Below the pieces are notes generated by a model that did no database searches, had not been told where the DNA came from, and was given only the letters and a program-made list of their open reading frames with translations. The translations under genes were made by a program, and so were the position numbers. Positions 16,985-57,410 of a stretch of DNA of 64,000 nt are shown here, one piece after another; positions within the stretch are counted from its first letter, which is position 1, and each line of letters opens with the position of its first letter. Origin of the DNA: Mobula hypostoma (Eukaryota); NCBI RefSeq assembly GCF_963921235.1, contig NC_086097.1:127226001-127290000 (forward strand), given 5' to 3'.

Positions 16985-17275
16985 TTGTTCCTTCCCCTCC
17001 CCTCCCCACCTTCTAGCTTTCGGCCCAAAATGTTGACTGTACTTCTCTTTCATCGATGCTACCTGGCCTGCTCGGTTCTTCCAACATTTTGTGTGTGTTG
17101 CTCAGATATCCAGCATCTGCAGATTTTCTCTTGTTTGTAGCTTCTTTCAATTTCCTCTCCAGTCCTGCTGAAGTGTGTTTGGCCTGAAATGTTGACTGTT
17201 TATTCCCTTCCATAGATGCTGCTTGACATGTTGAGTTCCTCCAGTATTTTGTGGGCATCTGCAGAATCTGTGTTA
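16985..17275 (+). mobile_element. Two nested or tandem PLE terminal-repeat fragments with decayed hammerheads
   Basis: Partial motif cggcccaaaatgttgactg at ~17021-17039 and cagtcCTGCTGA...GAAAtgttgactg at 17160-17198, each followed by the shared tail. Confidence 0.75.
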
Positions 17276-26787: not shown

Positions 26788-29300
26788 ATAGAAACATAGA
26801 AACATAGAAAATAGGTGCAGGAGTAGGCCATTCGGCCCTTCGAACCTGCACCGCCATTTATTATGATCATGGCTGATCATCCAACTCAGAACCCCGCCCC
26901 AGCCTTCCCTCCATACCCCCTGATCCCCGTAGCCACAAGGGCCATATCTAACTCCCTCTTAAATATAGCCAATGAACTGGCCTCAACTGCTTCCTGTGGC
27001 AGAGAATTCCACAGATTCACCACACTCTGTGTGAAGAAGTTTTTCCTAATCTCGGTCCTAAAAGGCTTCCCCTTTATCCTCAAACTGTGCCCCTTTGTTC
27101 TGGACTTCCCCAACATCGGGAACAATCTTCCTGCATCTAGCCTGTCTAATCCCTTTAGGATTTATACGTTTCAATCAGATCCCCCCCTCAATCTTCTAAA
27201 TTCCAACGAGTACAAGCCCAGTTCATCCAGTCTTTCTTCATATGAAAGTCCTGCCATCCCAGGAATCAATCTGGTGAACCTTCTTTGTACTCCCTCAATG
27301 GCAAGGATGTCTTTCCCAGATTAGGGAACCGAAACTGCACACAATACTCCAGGTGTGGTCTCACCAAGGCCTTGTACAACTGCAGTAGTACCTCCCTGCT
27401 CCTGTACTCGAATCCTCTCGCTATAAATGCCAGCATACCATTCGCCTTTTTCACCGCCTGCTGTAACTGCATGCCCACTTTCAATGACTGGTGTATAATG
27501 ACACCCAGGTCTCGTTGCACCTCCCCTTTTCCTAATTGGCCACCATTCAGATAATAATCTGTTTCCCTATTTTTGCCACCAAAGTGGATAACTTCACATT
27601 TATCCACATTAAATTGAATTTGCCCACTCACCCAACCTATCCAAGACCCTCTGCATCCTCTTAGCATCCTCCTCACAGCTAACACTGCCACCCAGCTTCG
27701 TGTCATCCGCAAACTTGGAGATGCTGCATTTAGTTCCCTCATCCAAGTCATTAATATATATTGTAAACAACTGGGGTCCCAGCACTGAGCCTTGCGGTAC
27801 CCCACTAGTCACTGCCTGCCATTCTGAAAAGGTCCCGTTTATTCCCACTCTTTGCTTCCTGTCTGCTAACCAATTCTCCACCCACACCAATACCTTACCC
27901 CCAATACCGTGTGCTTTAAGTTTGCACACTAATCTCCTGTGTGGGACCTTGTCAAAAGCCTTTTGAAAATCCAAATATACCACATCCACTGGTTCTCCCC
28001 TATCCACTCTACTAGTTACATCCTCAAAAAATTCTATGAGATTCGTCAGACATGATTTTCCTTTCACAAATCCATGCTGACTTTGTCCGATCATCTCACC
28101 GCTTTCCAAATGTGCTGTTATCACATCCTTGATAACTGACTCCAGCAGTTTCCCCACCACCGACATTAGGCTAACCGGTCTATAATTCCCTGGTTTCTCT
28201 CTCCCTCCTTTTTTAAAAAGTGGAGTTACATTAGCCACCCTCCAATCCTCAGGAACTAGTCCAGAATCTAACGAGTTTTGAAAAATTATCACTAATGCAT
28301 CCGCTATTTCTTGGGCTACTTCCTTAAGCACTCTAGGATGCAGACCATCTGGCCCTGGGGATTTATCTGCCTTCAATCCCTTCAATTTACCTAACACCAC
28401 TTCCCTACTAACATGTATTTCGCTCAGTTCCTCCATCTCACTGGACCCTCTGTCCCCTACTATTTCTGGAAGATTATTTATGTCCTCCTTAGTGAAGACA
28501 GAACCAAAGTAATTATTCAATTGGTCTGCCATGTCCTTGCTCCCCATAATCAATTCACCTGTTTCTGTCTGTAGGGGACCTACATTTGTCTTTACCAGTC
28601 TTTTCCTTTTTACATATCTATAAAAGCTTCTACAGTCCGTTTTTATGTTCCCTGCCAGTTTTCTCTCATAATCTTTTTTCCCCTTCCTAATTAAGCCCTT
28701 TGTCCTCCTCTGCTGAAATCTGAATTTCTCCCAGTCCTCAGGTGAGCCATTTTCTCTGGCTAATTTGTATGCTTCTTCTTTGGAATTGATACTATCCCTA
28801 ATTTTTCTTGTCAGCCACGGGTGCACTACCTTCCTTGATTTATTCTTTTGCCAAACTGGGATGAACAGTTGTTGTAGTTCATCCATGCAACCTTTAAATG
28901 CTTGCCATTGCATATCCACCGTCAATCCTTTAAGTGTCATTTGCCAGTCTATCTTAGCTAATTCATGTCTCATACCTTCAAAGTTACCCCTCTTTAAGTT
29001 CAGAACCTTTGTTTCTGAATTAACTATGTCACTCTCCATCTTAATGAAGAATTCCACCATATTATGGTCACTCTTACCCAAGGGGCCTCTCACGACAAGA
29101 TTGCTAATTAACCCTTCCTCATTGCTCAAAACCCAGTCCCGAATAGCCTGCTCTCTAGTTGATTCCTCGACATGTTGGTTCAAAAAACCATCCCGCATAC
29201 GTTCCAAGAAATCCTCTTCCTCAGCACCTTTACCAATTTGGTTCACCCAATCTACATGTAGATTGAAGTCACCATTATAACTGCTGTTCCTCTATTGCAC
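26788..29300 (-). mobile_element. Young CR1 LINE, 5'-truncated (end of AP endonuclease, RT and 3' UTR)
   Basis: ORF 27609..29246 has [47 protein letters not shown] and KFADDTKLG. The C-terminus continues in shifted frames (LVRPHLEYCVQF). Tail (TTCTATGT)n at 26788-26810. Confidence 0.95.
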
Positions 29301-29438
29301 AACCTTACGACAAGGTTGTGGTCCTCTTGGATGTCCTCCTGCTTTGAGTTTGCAAAGTTTGCATTCCATCTGCCACTGTTGCAGCTATGGCACAGGAATC
29401 CTGCAGTTTCACTATTCATTTTACCAGTCAATGCCCAA

Positions 29439-30657
29439 TTGAGGATGTGACTAAACTCATTGATGAAGGAAGAGCAGTAGATGTAGTGTATATGGATTTC
29501 AGCAAGACATTTGATAAGGTACCCCATGCAAGGCTTATTGAGAAAGTAAGGAGGCATGGGATCCAAGGGGACATTGCTTTGTGGATGCAGAACTGGCTTG
29601 CCCACAGAGGGCAAAGAGTGGTTGTAGATGCGTCATATTCTGCATGGAGGTCGGTGACCAGTGGTGTGCCTCAGGGATCTGTTCTGGGACCCTTACTCTT
29701 CATGATTTTTATAAATGATCTAGATGAGGAAGTGGAGGGATGGGTTAGTAAGTTTGCTGATGACACAAAGGTTGGGGGTGTTGTGGATAGTGTGGAGGGC
29801 TGTCAGAGGTTACAGTGGGACATTGATAGGATGCAAAACTGGGCTGAGAAGTGGCAGATGGAGTTCAACCCAGATAAATGTGAAGTGGTTCATTTTGGTA
29901 GGTCAAGTATGATGGCAGAATATAGTATTAATGGTAAGACTCTTGGCAGTGTGGAGGATCAGAGGGATCTTGGGGTCTGAGTCCAAAGGACGCTCAAAGC
30001 AGCTGTGCAGGTTGACTCTGTGGTTAAGAAGGGGTACGGTGTATTAGCCTTCATCAATCGTGGAACTGAATTTAGGAGCCGAGAGGTAATGTTGCAGCTA
30101 TACAGGACCCTGGTCAGACCCCACTTGGAGTACTGTGCTCAGTTCTGGTCACCTCACTATAGGAAGGATGTGGAAACTATAGAAAAGGTGCAGAGGAGAT
30201 TTACAAGAATGTTGCCTGAATTGGGGAGCATTCCTTATGACAACAGGTTGAGTGAACTTGGCCTTTTCTCCTTGGAGCAACGGAGGATGAGAGGTGACCT
30301 GATAGAGGTGTATAAGATGATGAGAGTCATTGATTGTGTGAATAGTCAGAGGCTTTTTCCCAGGACTGAAATGGTTGCCACAAGAGGACACAGATTTAAG
30401 GTGCTGGGGAGTAGGTACAGAGGAGATGTCAGGGGTACGTTTTTTACTCAGAGTGGTGAGTGCCTGGAATGGGCTGCTGGCAACGGTGGTGGAGGTGGAT
30501 CCGATAGGGTCTTTTAAGAGACTTCTGGATAGGTGCATGGAGCTTAGAAAAATAGAGGGCTATGGGTAAGCCTAGTAATTTCTAAGGTAGGGACATGTTC
30601 GGCACAGCTTTGTGGACCAAAGAGCCTGTATTGTGCTGTAGGTTTTCTATGTTTCTA
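29439..30657 (+). mobile_element. CR1 LINE 3' portion, second subfamily
   Basis: [48 protein letters not shown]. Tail ttctatgtttcta. A shorter copy of the same 3' end lies at ~31432-31700. Confidence 0.93.
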
Positions 30658-33600: not shown

Positions 33601-34005
33601 CCGCCATTGTGCAACCTTCTGAAAATCAATTGTTGGATGCTATGCTCTGGGTAAATTGGAGCCAAAAGCCCAACGCCATATTGGTCTTATCTTACAGTCA
33701 CTGTGTTTTTGCCTGTAGCTTTCGGACAAGGAAGAGGAGTAGTAGGCCATTAATGGGCGTTCTAGCTGAGGCAGTGCTGCTGCTTTTGAAAGATCAGCCC
33801 CTGGTTTTTGGCCCAGACTGAACCATCAGCTTAATTTACTGCTTCATGAAATAAAGCAAAGCAGTCAAACAGCAGAATCGTAATCCATCACAAGGAGAAT
33901 TTAAACGCAAACAACAGGAATTCTGCAGATGCTGGAAATTCAAGCAACATACATCAAAGTTGCTGGTGAACGCAGCAGGCCAAGCAGCATCTATAGGAAG
34001 AGGCG

Positions 34006-34047
34006 CAGTCGACGTTTCAGGCCGAGACCCTTCGTCAGGACTAACTG
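34006..34047 (-). ncRNA. Minimal type I hammerhead ribozyme motif in the inverted PLE arm
   Basis: Reverse complement reads cagttagtc-CTGACGA-agggtctcggcct-GAAA-cg-TC-gactg. Confidence 0.85.
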
Positions 34048-34520
34048 GAGGAAGAGTGAGTAAGGGATTTGAAAGCTGGAGGGGGAGGGGGAGATGCAAA
34101 ATGATAGGAGAAGACAGGAGGGGGAGGGATAGAGCCGAGAGCTGGACAGGTGATAGGCAAAAGGGGATACGAGAGGATCATGGGACAGGAGGTCCGGGGA
34201 GAAAGACGGGGGGGGGGACCCAGAGGATGGGCAAGGGGTATATTCAGAGGGACAGAGGGAGAAAAAGGAGAGTGAGAGAAAGAATGTGTGTATAAAAATA
34301 AGTAACAGATGGAGTACGAGGGGGAGGTGGGGCATTAGCGGAAGTTAGAGAAGTCGATGTTCATGCCATCAGGTTGGAGGCTACCCAGACGGAATATAAG
34401 GTGTTGTTCCTCCAACCTGAGTGTGGCTTCATCTTTACAGTAGAGGAGGCCGTGGATAGACATGTCAGAATGGGAATGGGATGTGGAATTAAAATGTGTG
34501 GCCACTGGGAGATCCTGCTT

Positions 34521-36608
34521 TTCCGTGTTCGCCACGATGCGGAACTTTTCTTCCGCTGTCTCCGTCTCCGAGCCTACTTCTTCGGCAAGGACTCTTCCAC
34601 CCCCACCGATGACCCCTTCTCCCGTCTTCAACCCTCCTCTTCTTCATGGACACCCCGCTCTGGTCTTCTGCCTGCTCTGGATCTCTTTATTGCCAACTGC
34701 CGACGGGACATCAACCGTCTCGACTTCACCGCACCTTGTTCCCATTCCAACCTCACTCCTTCGGAACGCTCTGCTCTCCACTCCCTCCGCACTAATCCTA
34801 ACCTTATTATTAAACCCGCTGATAAAGGGGGTGCTGTTGTAGTCTGGCGTACTGACCTCTACCTTGCCGAGGCACAGCGACAACTCGCGGATACCTCCTC
34901 TTATTTACCCCTCGATCGTGACCCCACTAAGGAGCACCAGGCCATTGTCTCCCACACTATCAACGACTTTATCCGCTCAGGGGATCTCCCATCCACTGCT
35001 ACCAACCTTATAGTTCCCACACCCCGCACTTCCCGTTTCTACCTCCTACCCAAGATCCACAAACCTGCCTGTCCTGGCCGACCTATTGTCTCAGCTTGCT
35101 CCTGCCCCACCGAACTCGTTTCTGCATACCTCGACACTGTTTTATCACCCCTTGTTCAATCCCTTCCGACCTATGTTCGTGACACTTCTCACGCTCTTAA
35201 ACTTTTCGATGATTTTAAGTTCCCTGGCCCCCACCGCTTTATTTTCACCATGGATGTCCAGTCCTTATATACTTCCATCCCCCATCAGGAAGGTCTCAAA
35301 GCTCTATGCTTTTTGGATTCCAGACCTAATCAGTTCCCCTCTACCACCACTCTGCTCCGTCTAGCGGAATTAGTCCTTACTCTTAATAATTTCTCCTTTT
35401 GCTCCTCCCATTTCCTCCAAACTAAAGGTGTAGCTATGGGCACCCGTATGGGTCCTAGCTATGCCTGCCTTTTTGTTGGGTTTGTGGAACAATCTATGTT
35501 CCGTGCCTATTCTGGTATCTGTCCCCCACTTTTCCTTCGCTATATCGACGACTGCATTGGCGCTGCTTCCTGCACGCATGCAGAACTCGTTGACTTTATT
35601 AACTTTGCCTCCAACTTTCAGCCTGCCCTCAAGTTTACCTGGTCTATTTCCGACACCTCCCTCCCCTTTCTAGATCTTTCTGTCTCTGTCTCTGGAGACA
35701 GCTTATCCACTGATATCTACTATAAGCCTACTGACTCTCACAGCTATCTGGACTATTCCTCTTCTCACCCTGTCTCTTGCAAAAACGCCATCCCCTTCTC
35801 GCAATTCCTCCGTCTCCGCCGCATCTGCTCTCAGGATGAGGCTTTTCATTCTAGGACGAGGGAGATGTCTTCATTTTTTAAAGAAAGGGGCTTCCCTTCC
35901 TCCACTATCAACTCTGCTCTTAAACGCATCTCCTCCATTTCACGTACATCTGCTCTCACTCCATCCTCCCACCACCCCACTAGGAATAGGGTTCCCCTGG
36001 TCCTCACCTACCACCCCACCAGCCTCATGGTCCAACATATTATTCTCTGTAACTTCCGCCACCTCCAACGGGATCCCACCACTAAGCACATCTTTCCCTC
36101 CCCCCCTCTCTCTGCATTCCGCAGGGATCGCTCCCTACACAACTCCCTTGTCCATTCGTCCCCCCCATCCCTCCCCACTGATCTCCCTCCTGGCACTTAT
36201 CCGTGTAAGCGGAACAAGTGCTACACATGCTCTTACGCTTCCTCCCTTACCACCATTCAGGGCCCCAAACAGTCCTTCCAGGTGAGGCATCACTTCACCT
36301 GTGAGTCGACTGGGGTGATATACTGCGTCCGGTGCTCCCGATGTGGCCTTTTATATATTGGTGAGACCCGACGCAGACTGGGAGACCACTTTGCTGAACA
36401 TCTACGCTCTGTCCGCCAGAGAAAGCAGGATCTCCCAGTGGCCACACATTTTAATTCCACATCCCATTCCCATTCTGACATGTCTATCCACGGCCTCCTC
36501 TACTGTAAAGATGAAGCCACACTCAGGTTGGAGGAACAACACCTTATATTCCGTCTGGGTAGCCTCCAACCTGATGGCATGAACATTGACTTCTCTAACT
36601 TCCGCTAG
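34521..36608 (+). CDS. Penelope-like reverse transcriptase plus GIY-YIG endonuclease; open frame, N-terminally truncated
   Basis: Part of ORF 34374..36608. RT motifs PADKGGAVVVW, FTMDVQSLYTSIP, GVAMGTRMGPSYA and LRYIDD; Cys-rich linker CKRNKCYTC; endonuclease GVIYCVRCSRCGLLYIGET. The first 49 aa of the listed ORF come from the inverted arm and are not native. Confidence 0.93.
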   Translation, partial: FRVRHDAELFFRCLRLRAYFFGKDSSTPTDDPFSRLQPSSSSWTPRSGLLPALDLFIANCRRDINRLDFTAPCSHSNLTPSERSALHSLRTNPNLIIKPADKGGAVVVWRTDLYLAEAQRQLADTSSYLPLDRDPTKEHQAIVSHTINDFIRSGDLPSTATNLIVPTPRTSRFYLLPKIHKPACPGRPIVSACSCPTELVSAYLDTVLSPLVQSLPTYVRDTSHALKLFDDFKFPGPHRFIFTMDVQSLYTSIPHQEGLKALCFLDSRPNQFPSTTTLLRLAELVLTLNNFSFCSSHFLQTKGVAMGTRMGPSYACLFVGFVEQSMFRAYSGICPPLFLRYIDDCIGAASCTHAELVDFINFASNFQPALKFTWSISDTSLPFLDLSVSVSGDSLSTDIYYKPTDSHSYLDYSSSHPVSCKNAIPFSQFLRLRRICSQDEAFHSRTREMSSFFKERGFPSSTINSALKRISSISRTSALTPSSHHPTRNRVPLVLTYHPTSLMVQHIILCNFRHLQRDPTTKHIFPSPPLSAFRRDRSLHNSLVHSSPPSLPTDLPPGTYPCKRNKCYTCSYASSLTTIQGPKQSFQVRHHFTCESTGVIYCVRCSRCGLLYIGETRRRLGDHFAEHLRSVRQRKQDLPVATHFNSTSHSHSDMSIHGLLYCKDEATLRLEEQHLIFRLGSLQPDGMNIDFSNFR

Positions 36609-36900
36609 GCCCCACCTCCCCCTCGTACCCCAGCTGTTACTCATTTTTATGCACACATTCTTTCTCTCACTCTCCTTTTTCTCCCTCTGTCCCTCTGAAT
36701 ATACCTCTTGCCCATCCTCTGGGTCACCCCCCCCCCCCCCGTCTTTCTCCCTAGGCCTCCTGTCCCATGATCCTCTCGTATCCCCTTTTGCCTATCACCT
36801 GTCCAACTCTCGGCTCTATCCCTCCCCCTCCTGTCTTCTCCTATCATTTTGCATCTCCCCCTCCCCCTCCAGCTTTCAAATCCCTTACTCACTCTTCCTT

Positions 36901-36942
36901 CAGTTAGTCCTGATGAAGGGTCTCGGCCTGAAACGTCGACTG
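36901..36942 (+). ncRNA. Minimal type I hammerhead ribozyme motif in the PLE 3' repeat
   Basis: cagttagtc-CTGATGA-agggtctcggcct-GAAA-cg-TC-gactg. Conserved core, short stem II, stem I (t)agtc/gact(g), and helix III reduced to the palindrome ACGT. Predicted cleavage after GUC at 36937. Confidence 0.85.
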
Positions 36943-37561
36943 CGCCTCTTCCTATAGTATGCTGCTTGGCCTGCTGCGTTCACCAGCAACTTTGATGTAT
37001 GTTACAAGGAGAATTTATCGCATTTCATCATCTGACCTCCAGGCTTACTGATCTCGTGTAAAATTGGAAACTGTTTCATGGGTACTGTATGACTTGCAGC
37101 TAATCACTGAAATGACCAGTGGCCTTGGTACCTTGATTACATTATGTGCTAACAGCCTCATTTTAACCCCCACAGAATCTATGTTGACCGCCAACTATCC
37201 ACTTACATTAATCCTGCACGAGCGCCATTGAATTCTCCACATACCCATCAATGCCCCACAGATTCTACCACTCACCTCTATATATCTGGGGCAATTTGCA
37301 GCAGTCACTGATAATTTACTGACCCACATGCCTTTGAAATGTGGGAGGAAACAGGAGCATCTGGAGGAAACCCATGTGCTCACAGGGATTTTACAGTACT
37401 ATAATGAAAGGTACCATATCAAGTGATCTTTGTGTATTTTCCAACTTGCAGAACTGTCAACTTAAGGATGCCTTTGAAAACACAACCAGTTTGTTACCCT
37501 GTATATGAAGCCATCAAACTGTTGTTTAAAAACCTGACTCTGTCTTTAATGTCTTCTAGGG

Positions 37562-38160: not shown

Positions 38161-38945
38161 TAGTGGATTCCAGTTAATTGGGACACATCGGGAGTAGTGT
38201 GTTTTGGCCCAATTTAGCTGCTGCCCAAATTAGCTGAAGTTTCATGGAAATAGCTGGAAGTTATAAAAAGGGTAAAGTACCATTTAACTAAGTAACAAAT
38301 TGTGTATTTAAATGAAATACAGAACAAATCAGAACACTACCAATGGTACTACAGTACTATAAAACTGTATTAATTCCTAATAGTTATGGACAGAGGAATT
38401 CATCCAGTGTATGCTGTCGTGTTTGTTTAATTGACTGCAATTGAACAAAATCAGCGCGGGCACCTGGTGCAGGTAATGACTTGGAGATGTGCTAAAAGGC
38501 CAGGAGCGAAAAGGAAACAATTTCACTCCTTCAGCAAGTTAGGAACTACGAAGATCTAGAAGGTATCAGCAATCATTTTGAAATGTTACAATGAAAATTA
38601 AGATTTGATGGATGCAATCTTTGAAAGCATTGTATGAAGACGGCCCATTATCTGCACTAGGTGTCTGCGCTGATTTTGTTCATTTATAAATCAAAAGAAC
38701 ACAACAGTGTACACTGAATTCCTCCATCAATAACTACTAAAAACTAATGCACGGTTTTATCGTACTATAGTACCATTGGAAGTGTTCTAATCTTCTGTAT
38801 TTCATTTAAGTACATAATTTTACTCAGTTTGACCTTTTTATACCTTTTTTAACTATTTCCACGAAGCTTCAGCTAATTGGGTCTGCCACTTAATTCGAAC
38901 AAAATGTACTGACCCCAAAGTGTCCCAATTAACCGGAATCCACTG
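38161..38945. mobile_element. Fold-back Tigger/pogo-like non-autonomous transposon with ~300-bp imperfect inverted arms
   Basis: Ends agtggattccagttaattgggacac and gtgtcccaattaaccggaatccactg|ta. Inverted similarity continues inward (aaatgaaatacagaa / ttctgtatttcattt; ccaatggtacta / tagtaccattgg). Confidence 0.85.
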
Positions 38946-44000: not shown

Positions 44001-44686
44001 AAATCTTTAGAAACAGATCTATTTTGAAACCATTGCATCTTTCAGCTCACTTTTCCAGTTGGAAAGATTCCTTAATGAGTTGATTCCCACTCTAATGAGG
44101 CATGACGGAATTGAATTGAATACCAATGCATAAGCTACCTTGGGGTTAACAACCCTGACTAGTCAAACAAAGCTGTTACGGAACCAGCAAAGAAGGATCC
44201 TTCTACACCTGGGTGCAATGGTGTTCGTGCATGACTGGCAGTAAACCGCGAGGAAGCTACTGATGTGATGAAGGAAGCCGTGAGCGCTACGAGAGATGGA
44301 GGACCTTCACTGCTCCCTACACACCAGCAGTGTGACAGGCAAAAAAGGAAGAACGCTTAAGATGCTGCTCAACACTCTTAAACTCAAGAATCCCGCAAAG
44401 AAACCCAGAGGAACTCAGCAGGTCAGGCAGCATCTTTGGAGAGGAATAAACAGTGGACATTTCAGGCCAAGACCCTTTATCAGGTTAACAATCTTTCTAC
44501 TGCTGAAAAACTTGGGGCTTTAGGATGTAAGAAATGTCAAATTTCTGTATTCCGTGATAGTTTCATTTTTAATTTTTAAAAAGTTTGAAACTTCAGTTTC
44601 TGATTCTACTCCTTGTATGTGTCCTAGTCTTTATCTCATCTTTGTATGAGCTGTGTGATAATTCCCACTTGGTTCTACCTAGTTGT

Positions 44687-44895
44687 CCACATCAAAGTTG
44701 CTGGTGAACACAGCAGGCCAGGCAGCATCTCTAGGAAGAAGTACAGTCGACGTTTCGGGCCGAGACCCTTCGTCAGGACTAACTGAAGGAAGAGCTAGTA
44801 ACATCTCTTCCTAGAGATGTTGCCTGGCCTGCTGCGTTCACCAGCAACTTTGATATGTGTTGCTTCAATTTCCAGCATCTGCAGAATTCCTCGTG
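44687..44895. mobile_element. 209-bp fold-back PLE-derived mini-element carrying a hammerhead
   Basis: Flanked by tctacctagttgt (44674-44686) and tctacctagctgt (44896-44908). Inverted arms at ~44689-44739 and ~44806-44857 match the terminal repeat of the 33904-37003 element. Confidence 0.85.
44744..44785 (-). ncRNA. Minimal type I hammerhead ribozyme motif with intact core
   Basis: Reverse complement reads cagttagtc-CTGACGA-a-gggt-ctcg-gccc-GAAA-cg-TC-gactg. Confidence 0.85.
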
Positions 44896-47800
44896 TCTAC
44901 CTAGCTGTGTTGTCTTTGGGAAAGCTTCATTGTAGTTGGTTGATTAACTGCTTGCTGTGTGCCAGAGCTCCCTTGGAGCTAATGACAGAATAGAATTACT
45001 GCTCAGAAGACTCTGATACTGACTGTAAAATTCCAGGTCATTAACCTGTTTTTCCTGTTCAAATGCTGATTCCTTGTACAGAATTCTTGCTGTGACACTG
45101 AAATTTCTGTTATCCAAATGGTGCAAAAATGATTAACCATTTCACATTGAATGCGTCATATTTTCTTTCCAATTCATTGCTTTCATGAAGTTTTTCTCAA
45201 AAGATTTTCAAACAGTGGCTTCATTTCTCCCAGTCTGATCTGGGTTCAAATATTATACATTCACCCAGAGTAACTGTGATTTAGTTTTCTCTGTCAAGCT
45301 GTTTCAGGTAAGTAATTGGAGTCAAATTCCAATAATCCAACACCTAAGGTCAAGGTAGAGTTATTACAATATTCACAAGAACATGTATGCACAGGCACAG
45401 TGACAAACATATTTGTAGCACCATCACAGGCACTTAGCATTACAGACACATCATTCACAAGAAAAACATAAATTAGACATAGATTATACGCAATTTCTAC
45501 AAGAAAGAATGCAATTAGAACAAAAACATTAATTGTAGTGCAAGTATGGTCGTCGTGTTGCTACTCTTGAGGTAGTGAGTAGGGTTGAGGAGGTTGGTAC
45601 AAGAACTGAATAGATGAAGAGAAATAGCTGTTCTTGTACCTGGTGGTGTGGGACTTAAGGCTTCGGTACATAGTGTCCACTGGGAATTTGATAGTGAATT
45701 TTCTGGACTATTGGTAATTACACTTTCCTTTCATCACTCTGACATCTGATGCAGTAATATAATAATTTTTGCCGTGGCTAGAATTCAAAGGGAGCAGGAA
45801 ATATACAAGCAATTGAGACCACTGGCTCTGGCTACAGACGTGTCTATGTTCCTGAACCCTATTGTTTCAGACTCCAGTTCCAATGATATACCTGGCCTGC
45901 ACTCCCAGCACATATTTCCAGACTGATTTGACCCGGATGCTGGATCACCAGGATTTCCAAAACAATTGGATATTGGCTTATTGGAGTTTGACTGCATTTT
46001 TTTCCTTTGCTACTATCTTTGTATATCACCAGACAAAAAGCCTGGGTTTTGCAAAAACAATTTAGTGCACTGTGTGGTATGAGTTTTGACTTTTGGCTGG
46101 AGTGAACAAGAACAGATGTGGGAGATGAGAGGGGGGAGAAACTGAGGCATCCAGTAGGTTTCCGCATCTTCGTAAAGGAAGTAGTGGCAAAAAAGGCAAG
46201 TGAAAACTCATTTCAGTGGCAGCTTCAAAATCCAACAAAGTACTGAGTAAGTGTGATCATTGTTTAACATGGGAAATCCCCCAGCTAATGTGTGCACGGC
46301 AGGCTCCCACAAGTATCAGGTTAAATTGTTTCGACGACAGTGGTTGAGGGATAAGTATCGGTTTGGGACTATGGATAACTCACACCTAGGAGGCTGCATG
46401 TATGGAATAAACTGCCAGAGAAAATAGCTGGGACAGGTGCAATAGCAACATTTAAAAGACACATTGATGCGTACCTGAATAGGAAAGGTTGAAAGATATG
46501 AGTCAAATGTGGACAAATGAAACTAGGTCAGATGTACACTTCCCTACTCCCGCTGAGGGTAGTATCATGAAATTAGTTTCCATTTCACACTCTCCAGCAA
46601 TTTAGCATTTCCTCAACAGCCTAGATTTTTGTGCTGGAGCAGAATTTGAACCAACAAACAGGCAATAGTCCTGAAGAAGGGTCTCGGCCTGAAATGTTGA
46701 GTGTTTATTCGTTTCCATAGATGTTGCCTGGCTTGCTGAGTTCTTCCAGCATTTTCTGTGATTTGAACAGGAGATAATGCTACTGAATGAGCCACTGCTG
46801 GGGAGTCTCCCCTTTCTTATCATTCCAAAACTGTGCATTGCAAAGAAACAAAAATTTGAAAAGGGAATATCAAAGCAGATGATCTTGAAAATACTTTTAG
46901 CGGACAAGTAGTTTTGAGTAAAATGCACAAAGTACTGGAGAAACTCAGCAGGTCAGGCAGCATCTATGGAGGGGAATAAACAGTCAACTTTTCGGCCCAA
47001 GACCCTTCATCAGGAAGGGTTCTTGGTTCTTGCCGCAATTTTTGCGTGTTACACTGGATTTCCAACATTCTCAGAATGTCTTGTGTTTACATCCATTTTG
47101 ATATCTGTTAACTTCTACCCACAGAACTTGTTGGGCTGCGTTGAAGGTGCCTTGTCCTAAGTGAAGATTCAAACAGTGGCACTGGAAAAAACGTCAATAA
47201 TCTAGTACTGTCTGGGCTTTGGTGCCAGAATAGCAGTTTCAGCTCATCAAGCAGACCCCATCTCCAGTATGAAACCTACCCACAGTCCTGACCACCACCC
47301 CCCGTGTTCCTGTTCCTGATCCTGACCCAGAGTCCAGCTGCACACTGGTCCCAGCCACACAAAAGACCTCCAGCTCAAGTTGTACATCCCAAACCATGTC
47401 AGGTTAATGAACGAGCCAAATTCCAAATGACTGGAATTTCTGAATAATTAGATTCTGGATTAAAGAAATTTCTCCTCATCTCCTTTCTAAATGGACGTCC
47501 CTGTCGCCTGAGGTTGTGTTCTCTGGTCTTTGACTCCCCCACTATAGTAAATGTGCTGTCCATATCCACTCTGTCTAGGCCTTTCAATAATTGATAGGTT
47601 TTAGTGAGATCCTGCCTCATTCTTCCAAACTCTAGCAAGTACAAGCCCAGAACCATCAGAGACTCCTCAGACATTACTGTTTCCTTCCCAGAATATTCTT
47701 CATGAACCTCCCCTGGATTCTCTCCAACCCCAGCACATCCTTTCGTAGATTGGGGCCCAAAACTGCACACAATGCTCCAACCAATGCCTTAGAAGCCTGA

Positions 47801-48441: not shown

Positions 48442-50978
48442 CGAGACAACCCGGTGACCCATTGCAGTCTAATGTGATGTGCTTTGGAAATTAAAGAAGA
48501 AAAACTCAGTTTATTAAAGAAGAAAGACGCGTGGAAAGACAAATAGAGCTCCTCCTCATTTAACGAAGGACACTTTTGATGACAACATTTCTGGTTGATC
48601 CGCCACCCCTCAGGAATGCTCTAACGTTTTCATTTCTTTTTCCCTGGCTTAAAGCCACGTACAGCTGACCATGCTGGAATACTGGTTTCTCCAAATAAAT
48701 CAACACATTCTCCATTGTTTGGCCTTACACCTTATGTATAGTCATAGCAAAGCGTGACTGTATCGGGAACTGGCTCCGCTGAAGAGGGATATCTTCCCCT
48801 TCTGATAAACAGAGTAATTCTTGGGATCATGACAATGTCATTTTTGAACGCACCAGTGTTTATCTTTGCTATGATGAGATTGTCGTGTAGTTCTTCCACC
48901 ATCATTCGCGTTCCATTGCAAAGCCTTGGTGGATCCAAGTTCCTCGTTGAAATGATGGGAGATCCCCTCTTCAATTCCAGTTTATGTGGTGGCAATCCGG
49001 AGAGTTCGACCGAATCAAGGAATTCTGTTGGAAAATGAGTGGTGTTAGTTCCTTCACTTACGGCATTGAAGGAACAGTATTCTTTCATGATTCCAGGGAA
49101 GTGTCTAATGCATGTGAAGTTGGGTTTTTTTTTTGCATCATTTCATTGAGTGGAACCAAGATAGAATTCCTCGAGAACAGTTCTGCACGATTGTCAAATG
49201 TCGGGTAGATGAAATTAATCCATTCTTCCATAGTTTTTGCTGTCAGAATCATATCTTCAGGTAATTCAATTTCATCATTTTCATTTTTCTCAATTTTGTC
49301 TTCTCCAACATCCAATAAGAACTCAGAATATCATCCTTCTTCCTCACTCAATCGCATGTTTCTCTTCAATTGAAACTTGATGAAGCTTCTCCATAAGTAG
49401 AACTTTTTTATGCATGAATTCTCCACATCAGCATCATTTCCATGTTTCACAACTGCTAGAAGCTGACGGAAATCGCCACAGCAAATGGTTAAAATATTAG
49501 ATTATGAAAACACGCAGACCTGTTTTATTGTCATTTAGTAAAGCATGCATTAAGAAATTATGCAATATTCCTCCGGTGTGATATCACAAAACACAGGACA
49601 GACCAAGCCTGGAAAAAAACTAACAAAACCACATAATTATAACATATAGTTACAACAGTGCAACAATACCCTAACTTGATGAAGAAGTCCATGAGCACAG
49701 TAAAAAGCTCAAAGTTTCTCAAATGTCCCACATCTCATGCAGACGGGAGAAGGAAGAAAAACTCTCCCTGCCATGCCCGACCATAGTCCGACTGAGTCAT
49801 CCGAAAACTTTGAGCCTCTGATCAGCTCTCCGACACCGAGTACTGAGCACCATCTCTATCCAAATGATTCGACCTCAATCTCGGTTGCCAACAGCAGGCA
49901 AAGCCAGGGATTTTGAGGCCTTCCCACCAGAAGATTCCCAATCTCGCAGTAACAACAGCAGCGAACTGGCGTTTCAGAAATTTCTCCAGATGTTCCTCTG
50001 TGCTTTCACGTCTCTCTCCATCAAATCAGAATTGTCCACGGCCCCTATTTAATGGATACAATATCATTTTTCACCGGAGGGTTGCGCACGCTCTCTCTCT
50101 CCTCCTGCTGGCCCCCTGAATACCCCCGAAGGCCTCATTCTTGCTGCATACATCACGAAGAGTCCAGTCCACGGCTTTGAAGTTCTCCCTCCTAATCATA
50201 GAGCACTCATTCCAGACAATAAGCCTCGCATTTTGGAGTAACTTTGCAGTATTGGTGTTTTTATCGATGTTACAAAGGGCATCTTCATTGACTTTGAGGG
50301 GTATTTTGAATCTTGAATGTGCTGTCCTACCACGAGGCATCAGGCGTTGCTGCAATACCTGATGATGCTACAGCAATAGCAACACCTCCATCTCCCCTAT
50401 CTCTAGCGAGGATCAAGTTCATGATAAATGTCTCCCATTCCTCCTGGTGCATCAATGAAAGTCATTGAAGAGAGATTCCTTTCTGGTGTCATCTCTTGAC
50501 CATAATGTCCCCCTTCTTTTTCCACGCAGCATAACTAGGCTGTCCATATTTTTTTACCCTAATGCTTGATAGAAGATACGAGGCAGTAACACCAAAGCCT
50601 CCAGGATGCTGATTTTTCTTGATGATGTGGTTGGCGGTCTCTTAAATGGACATGATAGCCCTGCCCTTTTGCTGTGGTTGGTGTCACTGCTGTGAGCATC
50701 ATGAGGTGCTGCTGAGGCTGGCCGTGCGCATGCGTCGTGGTGTCATGTCGCAGTTTCCATTAAAGCTGGAATTGGCTCGGGTGGTGGAAAGCAGAGCCTG
50801 TTGATTGATGAGTGAGCAATCTTGTGCGAATATATAACCTGAACTTTGCATGCATTCTGTAAGTTAGTGCATTTTAAGTCGATTTAGTCAAAAAAAAGTG
50901 CTGCTGTAATGCATTGTTTGGGCTAATTGGAGGTCACAAACAGACAAATAGAGCATGAGAATTTTAGTAGTATATAAA
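48442..50978 (-). mobile_element. Internally deleted Helitron with a pseudogenised PIF1-family helicase
   Basis: Minus-strand motifs FIDAPGG.G/TF, AVASSGIAA, GRTAHSRFKIPL, FGGILTICCGDFRQ, GLPPHKLELKRG, RNLDPPRLCNGTR, QFPIQSRFAMTIHK and HGQLYVALS. Inserted between A and T of CR1 gaggcaca^tgataaa with no TSD. 5' end TTTATATACTACTAAAA, 3' end GTCTCG. Confidence 0.88.
49497..50118 (-). mobile_element. Copy of the 23408-24077 family inserted in the Helitron helicase
   Basis: Shares gaggaacatctggag...ttctgaaa and the 3' end ...caataaaa...cataatctaa. aata is repeated at 49493-49496 and 50119-50122. Excision rejoins FGGI|LTICCGDFRQ. Confidence 0.82.
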
Positions 50979-53324
50979 TGTGCCTCCAAGTAGTCTGAAA
51001 CCATACCCTTATTGTCTTCCTAACCACTGAATTCAGGCTAACTGTGCTATAATTTCCTTTCTTCTGCCTCCCTCCCTTCTTAAAGAATCTTGTAACATTT
51101 GCAATTTTCCAGTCCTCTGGAACCATTACAGAATCTAATAACTCTTGAAATATCATTAGTAATGCCTCCACAATCTCTTCAGCAGCCTCTTTCAGAACCC
51201 TGGGATGCAGTCCAGGTGATTTATCTACCTTCAGACCTTTCAGCTTCCCAAGCACCTTTTCCTTAGTAACAGCAATTGCACTCACTTCTACCCCGTGATA
51301 CTCTTGAATTTGTGACATACTGCTGGTATATTCCACAGTGAAGACTGGCACAAAATACTTGTCAAGTTTGTCCGCCATTTCTCTTCCCCCATTACTACCT
51401 CTCCTGTGTCAATTTCTAGCGGTCTGATATCCTCTCTTGCCTGAAAAACTTTTTGTATCCTCCTTTATATTATTGGCTAGCTTACCTTTTCCTCCTCGTG
51501 GCTTTTTAGCTGCTTTCTGTTAGTTTTTAAAAGCTTCCCATTCTTCTTACATCCCAGTAATTTTTGCTAAATTATATGCCCTCTCTTTGCTTTTGTTGTT
51601 TTTGACTTCCCTTGTCAGCCATGTTTGCCTCATCCTCCTTTTAGAATGCTTCTTCAATATTGCTTCAATATTTTAACAGAGACACTTGATTCTATTTTAG
51701 AAAGTAATATACACATTATTGCATGCTCTATATATCTGGTTTAATTGAATATTAGTATAACTTTCAAGTTGGCTTTTTTAATCTTACTGATTTCTTAAAA
51801 TATCGACAGGGACCACTGCCATTATTTCAGAATAGCTATCTTTTTGAAGGAAGGTTAGAACCAAATATCGAGGTTTAAGTGAAGAACTGCTGTTTGGCAA
51901 TGTGTGTAATAAAAAAGCCATCAATTAATAATCACTGGGTAAAAGTTCAAATAAATTTCTTTATGAAACAGGTTACCCCAAACATGAATTTATTTAGTCA
52001 GAGGAACCAACTGTGCTCCAAATTTCTGTGAAGCCCTAAGCCCTACAGATGCTTCAGCGATTTTCTGACCATCGAAAGCATAGTTTACCTTTGAGTTCAC
52101 CGCTTATCAACTTAATAGCTGGGGATGTTGTTGAGCTTTCTTCTGCACATGTTTATAATAGGAATGGATAGAACACATCCACTCTTGATGTTTTCAAAGG
52201 TTATGAATAATCTGATTTCATGCTTAGTTGGAGAGAAACAAATGGGTATTTTGTAGATTACACAATGGACAGCATTGTATTAGTTCAAAATCATGTGTTC
52301 TTTGTTCTATTGCAAGCAAAACTGAGTTTGCCGATAGAGGTACAAGGACATCTCTCTCATTGCAGATCACTAAGGGGAGTATGCCAATAAACATGGTGTA
52401 TCTTGTTGCAAAGTAACTATTTAAAGCAATTGGCATTTTTTCTCCTCATGATTGTTAGTTATGTTTTTCTGATCTGGTGGAAGGAGACTTAAACCAAAGG
52501 ATTATTTTTAAATACTGGGTAGTTTTTTGAACTTTACATAGAAAGGTCACGCTTGCGCTGGTCAAACCAAAAGCCTAATCTAACTGGTAGAACTGAAGGG
52601 GGCTTCAAAGTGTTGGAAGTGAAATGAAAGAGTTACTTGTTGCATCACCTGCATTTGACCGCCTGCCTCCAATACACCTGGTTAATTACAGGGTTTGGGG
52701 CAGATCTGAGGGCCTTGGGAAAAGCACTAGAACAAATATATATCTTTCTTTTTCACTTTGCAATTGCTATTGTCCCATAGCTTGCTTTGGTAGCAGGTTT
52801 GTTGAAATTCTAGTAGGTGCACAATGAGTCTTTTTTTTAAAAAGATCCACACCACGTGCTATTGGACCAAAGGCTTGAAGAGGGTCATTTATTGGAACAA
52901 TTGAAAACTGTTGGCATTGCACGTACCCTGCATCCTCATGTACTGTGTTTCAAGTTTTAGAAGAAAGATTGCAGTGGCTGGTGCCTGCAACTAATTATTT
53001 CATGTTATGGTAACCTGTTACATAAAGAAATTTATTTCAACTCCTATCCAATAATTTTAATTAATGGCCTCTTCATTATATATAGTACATCAAAATGTTC
53101 CTCTTTCAAATCACTTTTGATTTTAAGATGCTGGATAATTGTTGATTTCAGTAAAACCTGTTTCTTTGGGCTCAGTTGTTTTGGATGAACATAGTTCACA
53201 TTTGAGACAAGTGAGTATTAAATTAAGGAGCAGCATCTGTCGGGGGGGGTGGGCAGTTGAGTGGGGAAGGAATTCCTTTGCTCCTGAGCCAGTATTTACA
53301 GTCTCCATCAAGAGATTGCAAGTT

Positions 53325-54780
53325 CATAGTCATAGTCATACTTTATTAATCCCGGTTTTTGTTACAGTTGCTTCATAAATAGTAATAAACCATAAATAGT
53401 TAAATAGTAATATGTAAATTATGCCAGTCAGGTAGTCAAGAAGCCATGATACCAAGGAAGTATCCACCTGCATCGCTGTCAGCTTCTCCCCCAGCAGAGC
53501 AGGGCGGATGGTGTTGAACGCACTGGAGAAGTCAAAAAACATGACCCTCACAGTGCTCGCTGGCTTGTCCAGGTGGGCGTAGACACGGTTCAGCAGGTAG
53601 AGAATGGCATCCTCAACTCCTAGTCGGGGCTGGTAGGCGAACTGGAGGGGATCTAAGTGTGGCCTGACCATAGGCCGGAGCAGCTCCAGAACAAGTCTCT
53701 CCAGGGTCTTCATGATGTGGGAGGTCAATGCCACCGGTCTGTAGTCATTGAGGCCGCTGGGTTGCGGCGTCTTCGGCACAGGAACGAGGCAGGACGTCTT
53801 CCACAGCACAGGAACCCTCCGGAGCCTCAGGCTCAGGTTGACTACATGGCGAAGTACTCCACATAGCTGAGGGGCACAGGCTTTGAGCACCCTGGTACTG
53901 ACACCATCCGGTCCTGCAGCCTTGCTTGGGTTGAGACGTTTCAGCTGTCTTTTCACCTGTTCAGCTGTGAAGCCCACCGTGGTGGTTTCGTGTGGGGAAG
54001 GGGTATAGTCATGAGAGCAGGGTGGGGGACTGTGAGGAGGGGTAGGAGGGGAGAGTGGAATATGTGTTGGTTGGGGGCCGACAACAGATGGCTCATGTGT
54101 GGGATGGGCAGGGGCCACAATGTCAAATCTGTTAAAGAACAGGTTAAGTTCATTGGCCCTGTCCACACTGCCTTCCGCTCCTCTGTTGCTAGTTTGCCGG
54201 AACCCAGTGATGGTCCTCATCCCCCTCCAGACCTCTCTCATGTTGTTCTGCTGGAGTTTTCACTCAAGCTTCCTCCTGTACCTGTCTTTAGCCTCCCTGA
54301 TCCTGGCTTTCAGGTCACTCTGTATTGCCCTCAGCTCCTCCCTATTTCCATCTCTAAATGCCCTCTTTTTAGTGTTCAGGATGTCCTTAATGTCCTTTGT
54401 CACCCATGGCTTGTTATCTGAATAACAAAGGACAGTTCTTGTCGGAACATTGCAGTCCACACAGAAGTTGATGTAATCAGTGATGCACTCTGTGAGCCCA
54501 TCAATATCCTCTCCATGTGGCTCACAGAGTGCCTGCCAGTCTGTCACCTCAAAACAGCGCTGGAGCGCCTCATAAGCCTCCTCCAACCATTTTCTCACTG
54601 TCCTCGAGGTTGCAGATTTACTCTTCACCAGAGGCATGTAGCAGGGTTTTAGATGCACCAGGTTGTGATCTGACCTTCTCAGTGGGAGGAGGAGAGAGGA
54701 GCTGTATGCATCCTTAACGTTAGCGTACATCAAATCCAGAGTCCTCTCCCCTCTGGTTGTACAGCTCACATACTGCTGGC
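53325..54780 (-). mobile_element. Rex1/Babar-type LINE with AP endonuclease end and first half of RT; distal RT deleted
   Basis: TLDLMYAN...SDHNLVHL, KAAGPDGV, DYRPVALTSHIMKTLERL, DPLQFAYQ and FFDFSSAFNTIRP, then an abrupt jump after WLLDYLTG to an AT-rich 3' end with AATAAA and (TATGAC)n. Confidence 0.9.
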
Positions 54781-56059
54781 CACCATTGATCAAGTGTCTG
54801 TTGCTCACACTTTACACGTGTCTGTACAAAAAGCACAGCTCTTGGGACACCCTTTCTCACCCACCCCTGGTCCCGCTGGGAGTCTCCTTCCTGCTGAGTT
54901 TAAGAGGAGCTGCAACATGAGGGGAATGAGGCCAACACGCTTGAATGGCTGCTAGTCTAGAGTTCCCTGAATTTCCCAGGTCAATCCAAATGGAACAAAG
55001 AATCAGGATAAGAGACTGTGGAAATCCAAGCACAGAATTCCCAGGACACCCAAATAAGTGGTTTTATGTCAAATGGGCCCACCTGTAAATATTGGTTGTG
55101 CCAACAATGTATGCTCAATTGTAGCCCGTGCTTTAGTTGGGTGTGTTTGGGGGAATTTGGATTCAGTCCTGGGTTGAGAGATTGGCAGAAATGTAGGTGT
55201 AGCATTGGTTAGATGATGGAAGTGCTTGGTTAAGTGGCAGAGATGCCTCTAGGTTGCACTGGTTGGAAGGTCCAGAAATTTGAGGACTAAATGTTGCAAC
55301 ATTGATTAATTCTGTCATGCATGTTTTATATAATTTATGTTTGTTGTCTTTGTAATATACTGTGCTTCTGCACAAAGCTAATTTTCACGGTATTTATGTA
55401 TGCCTCTGACAAACTTGAACCTGGCGTGGGGTTAGTGCAAGAACGTGGTGCTGATCTTATTGACCATTGGAACAAAGGGCTGAACAGCCTACTTTTGTTT
55501 CTATTTCTTAGATAAGTAGGGAGCTTGCTTACAAGGGTCAAAGTCTGGTGTTGCATTGTGAAGACTATGTTGTCTTTGAAGTGTCCAGCCAGTGGTTACT
55601 CCCACAGCAACTTGGCCTGTCTCTCTCTGCAATACTTTGAAAGGAGCTTTGCACTGGAACTGCTGTAACCTTGTGCATAAAGAAGCGGAAATCACATCAA
55701 GTCTACGAGGATGACCCACATCAGGAAGTACTCAGTCAAATTTCCAGAGCATTACAAGTCAGTTTGGAAATGGCCACTATTACATTTCGCTCTGAAAATA
55801 ATCAACAGCGTTGATTATATGCTTCTGTCCAGAAACTGAATTTCCAGGCATAGATGTTCCAATTTAAATCGAGAAATGTTCCTTATATGGATGTGTATAG
55901 TATTCCCTGAGATTAAGTCTCAAATGCTTTATTTTAGTATTGTATATATTTGTTATGAGTCTCTGTGTGATAAGTATCTAGTGTATTTTTTATAAATTTG
56001 TAATAAATATATAACCTAGACAATAATATAAAAGAGAATACTGGAAGATTTTTCCAAAA

Positions 56060-57410
56060 TATAAAGAGTAAGTGAGAGGCTACTGTGGATATTAGACTGC
56101 CGGAGAGGAAGTAATAGGAGACAGAGAAATGGCAGACAAACTTAAGTCTTTTGTGTCAGTCTGCACTGTGGATGACACTAGCAGTATGCCAGAAATTCCA
56201 GTGTCAGGGCTGAAGTGGGTGTAGTTGCTATTACTAAAGAGAAGGTGCTTGGGAAGCTGAAAGGTCTGAAGGTAGATAAATCACCTGGACTAGATTGACT
56301 ATACCCCAGAGTTCTGAATGATGTTACTGAAGAGATTGTGGAGCCATAGTAGAGATCTTTCGCGAATCACTAGATTCTGGAATAGTTCTGGAGGACTGGA
56401 AAACTGCAAATATCACTCCACTCTTTAAGAAAGGAGTGAGGCAGGAGAGAGGAAATTATAGCACATTTAGCTTGACTTCAGTGGTTGGGAAGATACTGGA
56501 GTCCATTATTAAGGATGAAGTTTCAGGGAAGATGCACGAAGCGGCGGGTTGTGTTGAGGAATCGGGGAGATTACAGAAGGATTTAGACAGACTGGGAGAA
56601 TGGGCAAAGTGGCAGATGAAATATACTGCAGGGAACTGTATGGCTATACACTTTGGTAAAAGGAATAAAGGCGTAAGTTATTTTCCAAATTGAGAAAATT
56701 CAAATATCAGAGGTGCAAAGGGATTTGGAAGCCCTTGTGCAGGATTCCCTAAAGGTTAACCTGCAGGTTGAGCCAGTGGTAAGGAAGGCAAATGCAAAGT
56801 TGGCATTTATTTCAAGAGGAGTAGAATATAAGAGCAAGGATGTAATGCTGAGGCTTTATAAGGTGTTGGTCAGACAGCACTTGGAGTATTGTGAGCAGTT
56901 TTGGGACCCTTATTTAGGAAAAGACATGCCGACATTGGAGAGGGTCCAGAGGAGGTTCACAAGAATGATTCTGGGAAAGAAAAGGTTAATGTATGAGGAG
57001 CGTTTGGCTCTGGGCTTGTACTTGCTGGAGTTTAGAAGAATGGGTGGGGCAGTGGGGAGATCTCTTTGAAGCATATTGGATATTGAAAGGTCAGGAAAGA
57101 GTCGATGTGGGAGGTTTCCTATAGTTGGTGAGTCAAGGACCAGAGGACACAGTTTAGGAATAAAGGTTTAGAACAGAGATAAGAAACTTCTGTAGACAGG
57201 TGGATGTCACAGATGGCTGTGGAGGCTAAGTCATTGAGTATATTTAAAGTGGAGGATGATAAGTTCTTGATTAGTAAGGGCACCAAAAGTTATGGGGGTA
57301 AGGCGGAAGAATGGGGTTGGGAGGGAAAATAAATCAGCCATGACGGAATGGTGGAGCAGACTTGATAATCTGCGTGGCATAATTCTACTCATGTCTTATG
57401 GTCTTATGGT
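56060..57410 (+). mobile_element. Decayed CR1 LINE with internal deletion, ending ~75 bp upstream of the exon at 57485
   Basis: [45 protein letters not shown]. Tail tcttatggtcttatgg. Confidence 0.88.

What the first reader, a model, noticed from the sequence alone, without database searches (positions are those of the whole stretch)
44674..44908. 209-bp non-coding fold-back element consisting of a hammerhead between inverted arms, with its own TSD
Seen: a 13-bp TSD (one mismatch) encloses ~50-bp inverted arms around a hammerhead with a perfect core, and there is no coding sequence. All parts match the terminal repeat of the PLE at 33904-37003. Inferred: either an extreme truncation-plus-inversion product of PLE integration, or a member of a minimal ribozyme-bearing non-autonomous family (retrozyme-like) mobilised by the PLE protein. 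The second would be the most novel system in this window.
Basis: partly seen in the sequence, partly recalled or inferred. Interest (0 to 1): 0.7.

Follow-up and report, generated by a model that had tools for sequence, protein, structure and literature searches.

The report
Stub of a Penelope retroelement insertion
This 209-base hairpin is a real insertion built from two back-to-back end pieces of a very abundant Penelope-type jumping gene in a ray, in a layout already described for this class, and it is most likely a dead one-off by-product, not a self-spreading ribozyme element.

Summary
In detail: a 13-bp TSD (1 mismatch), a 209-bp insert, 52-nt inverted arms and a hammerhead motif on the minus strand. 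The insert is two head-to-head, 5'-truncated pieces of a Penelope-like element's terminal repeat (pLTR): a 114-nt arm with the hammerhead and a 91-nt arm with a one-sided 38-nt tail. The long element at 33904-37003 and published PLE insertions share this layout; the stub is 91% identical to the long element (sister subfamily). The hammerhead is the known minimal PLE type (no helix III, extra A) and occurs once, so retrozyme criteria fail. Three junction bases copy the adjacent arm, a likely cDNA snap-back. In public-run contigs, the 15 of 330 joints shown are all head-to-head joints with 15 different breakpoint pairs, none this one. No genome was held, so the junction's copy number was not counted; one imperfect look-alike contig exists. 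Best reading (0.85): two target-primed cDNAs, one per nicked strand, aborted early and were end-joined. Re-mobilised family: about 0.07. The scan noted this pattern many times elsewhere in this genome. Interest is low.

The parts
44674..44686 (+). Left copy of 13-bp target-site duplication
   Evidence: 12/13 identical to the right copy
44687..44687 (.). One base matching neither the long PLE's pLTR nor the right TSD register (non-templated or mutated); boundary uncertain by 1 nt
   Evidence: alignment A1
44688..44801 (-). Hammerhead-bearing arm: 114 nt of 5'-truncated pLTR 3' end without the tail
   Evidence: 10 differences in 113 nt from the long PLE
44744..44781 (-). Minimal type I hammerhead motif: helix I 44781-44777 / 44748-44744, CUGACGA 44776-44770, extra A 44769, helix II 44768-44757, GAAA 44756-44753, loopless palindromic ACGU, predicted cut 3' of 44749
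   Evidence: features as in PMC4209133; cleavage not tested
44800..44821 (.). Inversion junction: 3 extra bases (44802-44804) complete a perfect 9-bp hairpin 44800-44808 / 44813-44821 with a 4-nt loop; likely snap-back templated insertion
   Evidence: 1 of 64 possible 3-mers completes the stem
44805..44895 (+). Tail-bearing arm: 91 nt of pLTR 3' end, starting 8 nt downstream of the hammerhead cut position, so it has no hammerhead
44858..44895 (+). 38-nt one-sided tail
   Evidence: the long PLE has a 42-nt one-sided tail at 33904-33945; 30-40 bp tail in PMC8557442 and PMC11167929
44896..44908 (+). Right copy of 13-bp target-site duplication
33904..37003 (+). Comparison element (sister subfamily, not the donor): inverted 618-nt arm with tail (34521-33904), then a 5'-truncated RT + GIY-YIG element (34522-37003); 14-bp perfect TSD at 33890-33903 / 37004-37017

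Best explanation
The 209-bp insert consists of two head-to-head, cut-short copies of the end piece of a Penelope-like retroelement between a 13-bp target duplication, and it is most likely a dead by-product of one insertion event. Shown: the layout, the one-sided 38-nt tail, the TSD, the single minimal hammerhead, and three junction bases complementary to the adjacent arm. Inferred mechanism: the element's GIY-YIG endonuclease nicked both strands 13 bp apart. Each 3'-OH primed reverse transcription on element RNA, one from the outer and one from the inner of two internal start sites about 38 nt apart. The two cDNAs aborted after about 91 and 114 nt. The shorter cDNA's 3' end folded back on a 4-bp micro-hairpin and copied 3-5 of its own bases, and the two ends were then joined. 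The hammerhead is a passenger because it lies just upstream of the reverse-transcription start sites. Each arm holds sequence the other lacks (hammerhead in one, tail in the other), so neither arm can be a pure copy of the other.
For: Same divergent-arm, one-sided-tail, TSD layout as the PLE at 33904-37003. That PLE encodes RT (below the curated cutoff) plus CKRNKCYTC and GVIYC..C..YIG motifs, and its relatives carry RT and GIY-YIG domains. The layout is described in PMC8557442 (inverted 5'-truncated copy, 30-40 bp tail at one end; passages) and PMC3846280 (8-10 bp TSDs, palindromes at the inverted junction; passages). A purified PLE protein cuts and extends both strands and starts RT at two internal sites that bound the tail, and hammerhead cleavage is not needed in vitro (PMC11167929). 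In public contigs the arms are hugely repeated (summed depth 1e6-1e7 against 7-50 in the flanks of the three deep runs). The 15 of 330 joints shown are all antisense-arm to sense-arm joints with 15 different breakpoint pairs; 2 have no hammerhead at all, 4 cut through the core, and none is this junction. The best-supported loose ends at 44801 and 44805 run on as ordinary pLTR in all four runs and all four. Snap-back: 1 of 64 3-mers completes the stem, and a terminal 4-bp snap-back exists at 1 of 187 truncation points of the long PLE's pLTR; snap-back 5' junctions are documented for R2 TPRT (PMC11371274, passages).
Against: The junction could not be counted in the genome. Only 15 of 330 joints were visible, picked by support and not at random. 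Some other joints have contig depths up to about 30 times the flank depth (e.g. 202 against 7 in X1), which may be inflation by repeat words or modest amplification of those junctions. One X3 contig (55 nt, depth 25.7, about twice the flank depth) crosses 44773-44814 with 3 differences, and one X8 contig (42 nt, depth 5.5) crosses 44773-44812 with 4, so a look-alike junction may exist at another locus. The two-start-site data come from a Poseidon-clade protein in vitro, not from this Neptune/Nematis-type family. The snap-back test was set up after the hairpin was seen. The empty site was not observed.
Confidence: 0.85

Rival explanations
1. The fold-back is itself a non-autonomous element: it is transcribed as a hairpin, processed by its hammerhead (as a dimer or with PLE protein help) and re-inserted by the PLE protein, so the junction defines a family.
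For: Non-LTR retrozymes derive from PLE pLTRs and occur in the one chondrichthyan sampled (bioRxiv 10.64898/2026.07.22.740005). PLE proteins can act in trans on pLTR-flanked cargo (PMC3846280). All core letters are intact. One imperfect junction look-alike contig in X3.
Against: One hammerhead, no tandem unit, no helix III. Single minimal motifs showed no cleavage in PMC4209133. Predicted helix I pairing is about 5% in the full fold, and the cleavage-ready shape costs 5.8 kcal/mol. The sequence next to the RT start sites is predicted to be locked in a 52-bp stem. The two outer ends reproduce the two PLE start sites, which re-copying a hairpin RNA would not obviously do. The 15 joints shown all differ. 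The junction occurs once in the window.
Confidence: 0.07
2. A longer inverted PLE insertion that later lost its middle by deletion (or was collapsed in assembly), leaving only the two outer ends.
For: Long near-perfect inverted repeats are unstable (general knowledge), and long inverted copies exist here (33904-37003). No public contig bridged the junction, so the window assembly is its only witness.
Against: The junction has templated extra bases that fit a cDNA 3' end at a snap-back site. Many other short head-to-head joints exist. The window assembly resolves a 580-bp, 96% inverted repeat nearby and has no N.
Confidence: 0.06
3. One cDNA folded back and copied itself to make the whole second arm (pure self-priming), as proposed for PLE palindromes.
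For: There is a snap-back hairpin at the junction; self-priming is proposed in PMC3846280.
Against: Each arm has sequence missing from the other: the hammerhead region in one, the 38-nt tail in the other. Snap-back accounts for only 3-5 bases.
Confidence: 0.02

Closest known systems
Inverted (head-to-head) insertion units of endonuclease-positive Penelope-like elements with a one-sided 30-40 bp tail (PMC8557442 Fig. 2 legend; Pen2a_Av in PMC3846280; PAc mechanism in PMC11167929)
   Same: Inverted 5'-truncated copy joined to a direct copy, tail at one end only (38 nt), TSD of similar size (13 bp against 8-10 bp in Adineta), palindrome at the junction, hammerhead in the pLTR.
   Different: Both halves are extremely short (114 and 91 nt), so no ORF is left; the family is Neptune/Nematis-type from a ray; only one arm retains the hammerhead.
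Minimal type I hammerheads (min-HHR) of metazoan PLE pLTRs (PMC4209133)
   Same: [quoted passage not shown]
   Different: Helix II is short here (3-4 bp against 7-8 bp in Schistosoma); the activity of this sequence is untested.
Non-LTR (animal) retrozymes (PMC7761336; bioRxiv 10.64898/2026.07.22.740005)
   Same: Non-coding, type I hammerhead, pLTR-derived, size in the 150-300 bp range.
   Different: Retrozymes are head-to-tail repeats with a hammerhead in each unit and give circular RNA; this is one head-to-head pair with one hammerhead.
Snap-back 5' junctions of R2-protein TPRT insertions (PMC11371274)
   Same: The cDNA 3' end appears to prime synthesis on itself before joining.
   Different: Here the snap-back is 3-5 nt and the join is to a second cDNA, not to target DNA; inferred from one genomic fossil.

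Membership tests
EN+ PLE inverted insertion unit | Sequence is the pLTR of an element encoding RT plus C-terminal GIY-YIG endonuclease | tested here: met
   91% to the pLTR of 33904-37003; RT and GIY-YIG motifs in that ORF. The stub's own subfamily master was not seen.
EN+ PLE inverted insertion unit | Inverted 5'-truncated copy adjacent to the direct copy, head-to-head | tested here: met
   44801-44688 (-) joined to 44805-44895 (+)
EN+ PLE inverted insertion unit | 30-40 bp tail at one end only | tested here: met
   38 nt, 44858-44895
EN+ PLE inverted insertion unit | Target-site duplication | tested here: met
   13 bp, 1 mismatch; empty site not observed
Neptune/Nematis-type PLE (parent family) | CX2-5CxxC linker motif upstream of GIY-YIG, and two Cys between GIY and YIG | tested here: met
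   CKRNKCYTC at 36204 and GVIYCVRCSRCGLLYIG at 36312; definition from PMC8557442
Neptune/Nematis-type PLE (parent family) | Placement in the Neptune rather than the Nematis clade by RT phylogeny | not tested
   No named reference sequences were held
PLE minimal hammerhead | Conserved core, extra nt after A9, G10.1-C11.1, palindromic 15.2-16.2, no helix III | tested here: met
   against PMC4209133
PLE minimal hammerhead | Self-cleavage as dimer or with protein | not testable with these tools
   Needs in vitro assay; in a computed dimer of the 38-nt motif the active shape is -13.9 kcal/mol against an MFE of -34.1
Non-LTR retrozyme | Head-to-tail repeat with at least two consecutive units each holding a hammerhead | tested here: not met
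   One motif between 44600 and 45000; no direct self-repeat found there; definition from the bioRxiv paper
Non-LTR retrozyme | Multiple dispersed copies of the same unit | tested here: inconclusive
   No genome; once in the window; the 15 joints shown all differ; no exact bridging contig listed, one imperfect look-alike
Non-LTR retrozyme | Circular RNA in vivo | not testable with these tools
   Only assembled contigs were available
LTR retrozyme | Direct ~350-bp LTRs with type III hammerheads, PBS/PPT, 4-bp TSD | tested here: not met
   Inverted arms, type I motif, 13-bp TSD; definition from PMC7761336

The most novel reading that the evidence does not exclude
Short fold-back PLE stubs like this one are transcribed and re-inserted by the PLE protein, so that some junctions (this one included) found small non-autonomous hairpin families: an inverted-repeat route to ribozyme-bearing retroelements distinct from tandem retrozymes.
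Probability: 0.07. Interest if true: 0.6.

Novelty: new member of a known kind. Interest (0 to 1): 0.13.

Why it matters
As it stands it is an ordinary fossil. Its modest value is mechanistic: the two outer ends and the templated junction fit a model in which both nicked strands prime their own cDNA and the two cDNAs are end-joined, a step of PLE mobilisation that PMC11167929 says is not yet validated. A genome-wide catalogue of such junctions in a ray could test that model in vivo. If the junction were amplified, it would show a new way for ribozyme-bearing non-autonomous elements to arise.

Tried and rejected
Rfam gave 0 hits at gathering threshold in the whole window and 3 sub-threshold generic hairpin matches in 44600-45000, none a hammerhead model; these were rejected as chance. 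The junction pattern gave 0 hits in metagenome contigs, and a pLTR core pattern gave 0 hits in metagenome, prokaryote-genome and viral contigs; these collections are not expected to hold the host, so they are uninformative. On 44766-44841, none of the 32 listed pieces (of 17,011; the longest, plus some at a joint) in runs X8, X3, X13 and X14 bridges the junction by the tool's 31-letter rule; the longest aligned piece is 42 letters. Filters drop records, so this does not prove a single copy. No RNA holder was listed; this says nothing about expression. The empty-site joint (44686 to 44909) was not among the 15 joints shown. The promoter/terminator scan is bacterial and irrelevant. Look-ups of earlier findings by sequence and by relatives returned nothing. 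Of 8 other old pLTR loci in the window, none showed a head-to-head partner.

Full report
1. Observation. The 13-mers at 44674-44686 and 44896-44908 match at 12 of 13 bases and enclose 209 bp. Such a match has a chance of about 1e-6 per register, or 1e-4 allowing 11x11 registers. Inverted arms of 52 nt with 3 mismatches lie at 44688-44739 and 44806-44857. The minus strand folds at -119 kcal/mol, z -12.5, with 0 of 200 shuffles as good. No ORF of 120 aa or more overlaps the insert. In public contigs the unique flanks run into the element. In run X1 (organism A) one contig covers 44500-44716 and another 44871-45099, both at depth about 7; X8 covers the left end; X3 (organism B) covers 44873-45099 with no difference. 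These contigs enter the element by 23-30 letters, short of the tool's 31-letter bridging rule. That is what contigs entering a high-copy repeat are expected to do (inference). So both ends appear real, and at least the right end is shared by two organism labels.

2. Anatomy. Against the terminal repeat (pLTR) of the long element at 33904-37003, the insert splits into two pieces pointing away from each other. On the minus strand, 44801-44688 is 114 nt of pLTR 3' end including the hammerhead. On the plus strand, 44805-44895 is 91 nt of the same region; it begins 8 nt downstream of the predicted cut site and runs 38 nt further 3' than the other arm. The 'arms around a hammerhead' are simply the overlap of these two pieces. 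The long element has the same plan at larger scale: an inverted 618-nt piece with a 42-nt extension, a junction at 34521/34522, a 5'-truncated body that stops short of the extension, and a perfect 14-bp TSD. Its ORF has RT (PF00078 at 6e-5, below the curated cutoff), a CKRNKCYTC linker and a GIY-YIG with two internal cysteines, i.e. Neptune/Nematis type by the definition in PMC8557442 (passages). Its closest protein hits by identity are 92-93% matches from Mobula hypostoma, so the host is a ray. The stub differs from the long element at 10 of 113 and 8 of 91 positions. Its diagnostic letters recur in the loose-end consensus of many public contigs, so it comes from a sister subfamily. At 44740, 44855 and 44866 it departs from the large majority of laid contigs (table 3). 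Each of the three arm mismatches has one arm agreeing with the long element, and none is compensated. This fits plain decay, though three sites are few.

3. The hammerhead. All conserved core letters are present: helix I of 5 bp, CUGACGA, an extra A, helix II of 3-4 bp, GAAA, then CGUC with no loop. This is the minimal PLE hammerhead of PMC4209133 (parts 1-2 of 4 read). That paper lists the extra nucleotide after position 9, the G10.1-C11.1 pair and the palindromic 15.2-16.2. It reports no cleavage for a single Schistosoma motif and low cleavage for dimers, and says most such motifs are singles probably related to truncated PLEs. PMC11167929 (parts 1-2 of 4 read) found that an Anolis PLE hammerhead cleaves only with protein and is dispensable for insertion in vitro. 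In the stub there is one copy. Predicted helix I pairing is about 5%, and forcing the cleavage-ready shape costs 5.8 kcal/mol. Activity is untested.

4. The junction. Three bases (44802-44804) belong to neither piece. With their neighbours they form a perfect 9-bp hairpin, 44800-44808 with 44813-44821, with a 4-nt loop. Only 1 of 64 three-letter words would complete it, and a terminal 4-bp fold-back is available at 1 of 187 truncation points in the long element's pLTR (control devised after the hairpin was seen, and run on the sister subfamily). The simplest reading is that the cDNA of the tail arm stopped at a micro-hairpin, copied 3-5 of its own bases, and was joined to the other cDNA. If the T at 44820 was in the template, this also gave 2 nt of microhomology; if it is a later mutation, the stem was 7 bp. 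Snap-back junctions are reported for R2-protein insertions (PMC11371274, passages), and palindromes at PLE inversion junctions in PMC3846280 (passages).

5. One-off or family? The direct test could not be run because no genome is held. Indirect evidence comes from contigs of public runs. The arms are extremely repeated (summed depth 1e6-1e7 against 7-50 in the flanks of the three deep runs; not a copy number). At both sides of the junction the best-supported loose ends continue as ordinary pLTR. Of 330 joints, 15 were shown. All join the antisense arm to the sense arm, with 15 different breakpoint pairs (10 left and 12 right positions), each on 1-4 contigs per run. Two contain no hammerhead, four cut through the core, nine turn at 44776-44780, and none is this junction. 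This is what a continuum of independent aborted insertions looks like. Against over-reading: the 15 are chosen by support; some have depths up to about 30 times the flank depth; one X3 contig (depth 25.7) crosses 44773-44814 with 3 differences and one X8 contig (depth 5.5) crosses 44773-44812 with 4, so a look-alike junction elsewhere is possible. Because the micro-hairpin is built into the subfamily, the right half of this junction could recur independently. The junction occurs once in the window.

6. Mechanism. Shown: layout, tail, TSD, single minimal hammerhead, templated-looking junction bases. Established for the class: inverted 5'-truncated copies with a one-sided 30-40 bp tail (PMC8557442, passages); a PLE protein that cuts and extends both strands and starts reverse transcription at two internal sites bounding the tail (PMC11167929). 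Inferred here: staggered nicks 13 bp apart, two cDNAs primed from the two nicks at the two start sites, early abortion at 91 and 114 nt, snap-back and end-joining. Pure self-priming cannot make the whole structure, since each arm has sequence that the other lacks. Confidence 0.85. Re-mobilised family 0.07, later deletion or collapse 0.06, pure self-copy 0.02.

7. Comparison and novelty. It meets the four tested features of an EN+ PLE inverted insertion unit. It fails the tandem criterion of non-LTR retrozymes (bioRxiv 10.64898/2026.07.22.740005, part 1 of 5 and passages; PMC7761336, passages) and the layout of LTR retrozymes. It does not work like a retrozyme either, as far as can be predicted, since a unit-length RNA needs two cuts and there is one motif. 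Earlier scan notes on other windows of this genome reached the same reading many times; these are unchecked AI notes and not independent support. Their one recurring point of interest, that fold-backs turn at the front edge of the hammerhead, agrees with 9 of the 15 joints shown, but this stub is not of that class: its arm extends 20 nt further. Verdict: real, ordinary, new member of a known kind, interest 0.13. Supplements and figures of the cited papers were not seen and may show equally short insertions.

Noticed in passing
window 44776-44780 (joints): 9 of the 15 head-to-head joints shown from other loci turn at the front edge of the hammerhead (helix I 5' strand). The selection is by support and may be biased by where older subfamilies diverge. 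Earlier notes report the same pile-up.
   Followed up: partly
window 10864, 46666, 47015, 44484: By eye in the alignment, 4 of 11 older pLTR ends in the window also begin at or within a few bases of the hammerhead front edge.
   Followed up: partly
window 46669-47015: Two older pLTR ends (81% alike over 90 nt) face each other tail-to-tail about 170 bp apart, the rarer orientation; no TSD was sought.
   Followed up: partly
window 44411-44484: An older solo pLTR fragment with a decayed hammerhead lies 190 bp upstream of the stub, on the same strand as its hammerhead arm; unrelated insertion by divergence (76%).
   Followed up: partly
window 10553-10996 and 17019-17253: Two head-to-tail pairs of old pLTR ends (73-75% alike); decayed, and only one of the four retains a recognisable hammerhead pattern.
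   Followed up: partly
window 34521/34522: The long PLE's inversion junction opens a chimeric 768-codon stop-free frame (34302-36608) in which the inverted arm reads into the RT frame; probably incidental.
   Followed up: no
window 38162-38944: Nested inverted repeats (arms 38162-38253 / 38853-38944 and inner pairs) suggest a MITE-like DNA element.
   Followed up: no
window 48732-49142 (-): Short frame resembling a PIF1/Helitron-type helicase fragment (label recalled from motifs, not tested).
   Followed up: no
window 27266-30517, 50923-57069: Several decayed CR1/L2-like and Rex-like LINE reverse-transcriptase fragments (labels recalled from motifs, not tested).
   Followed up: no
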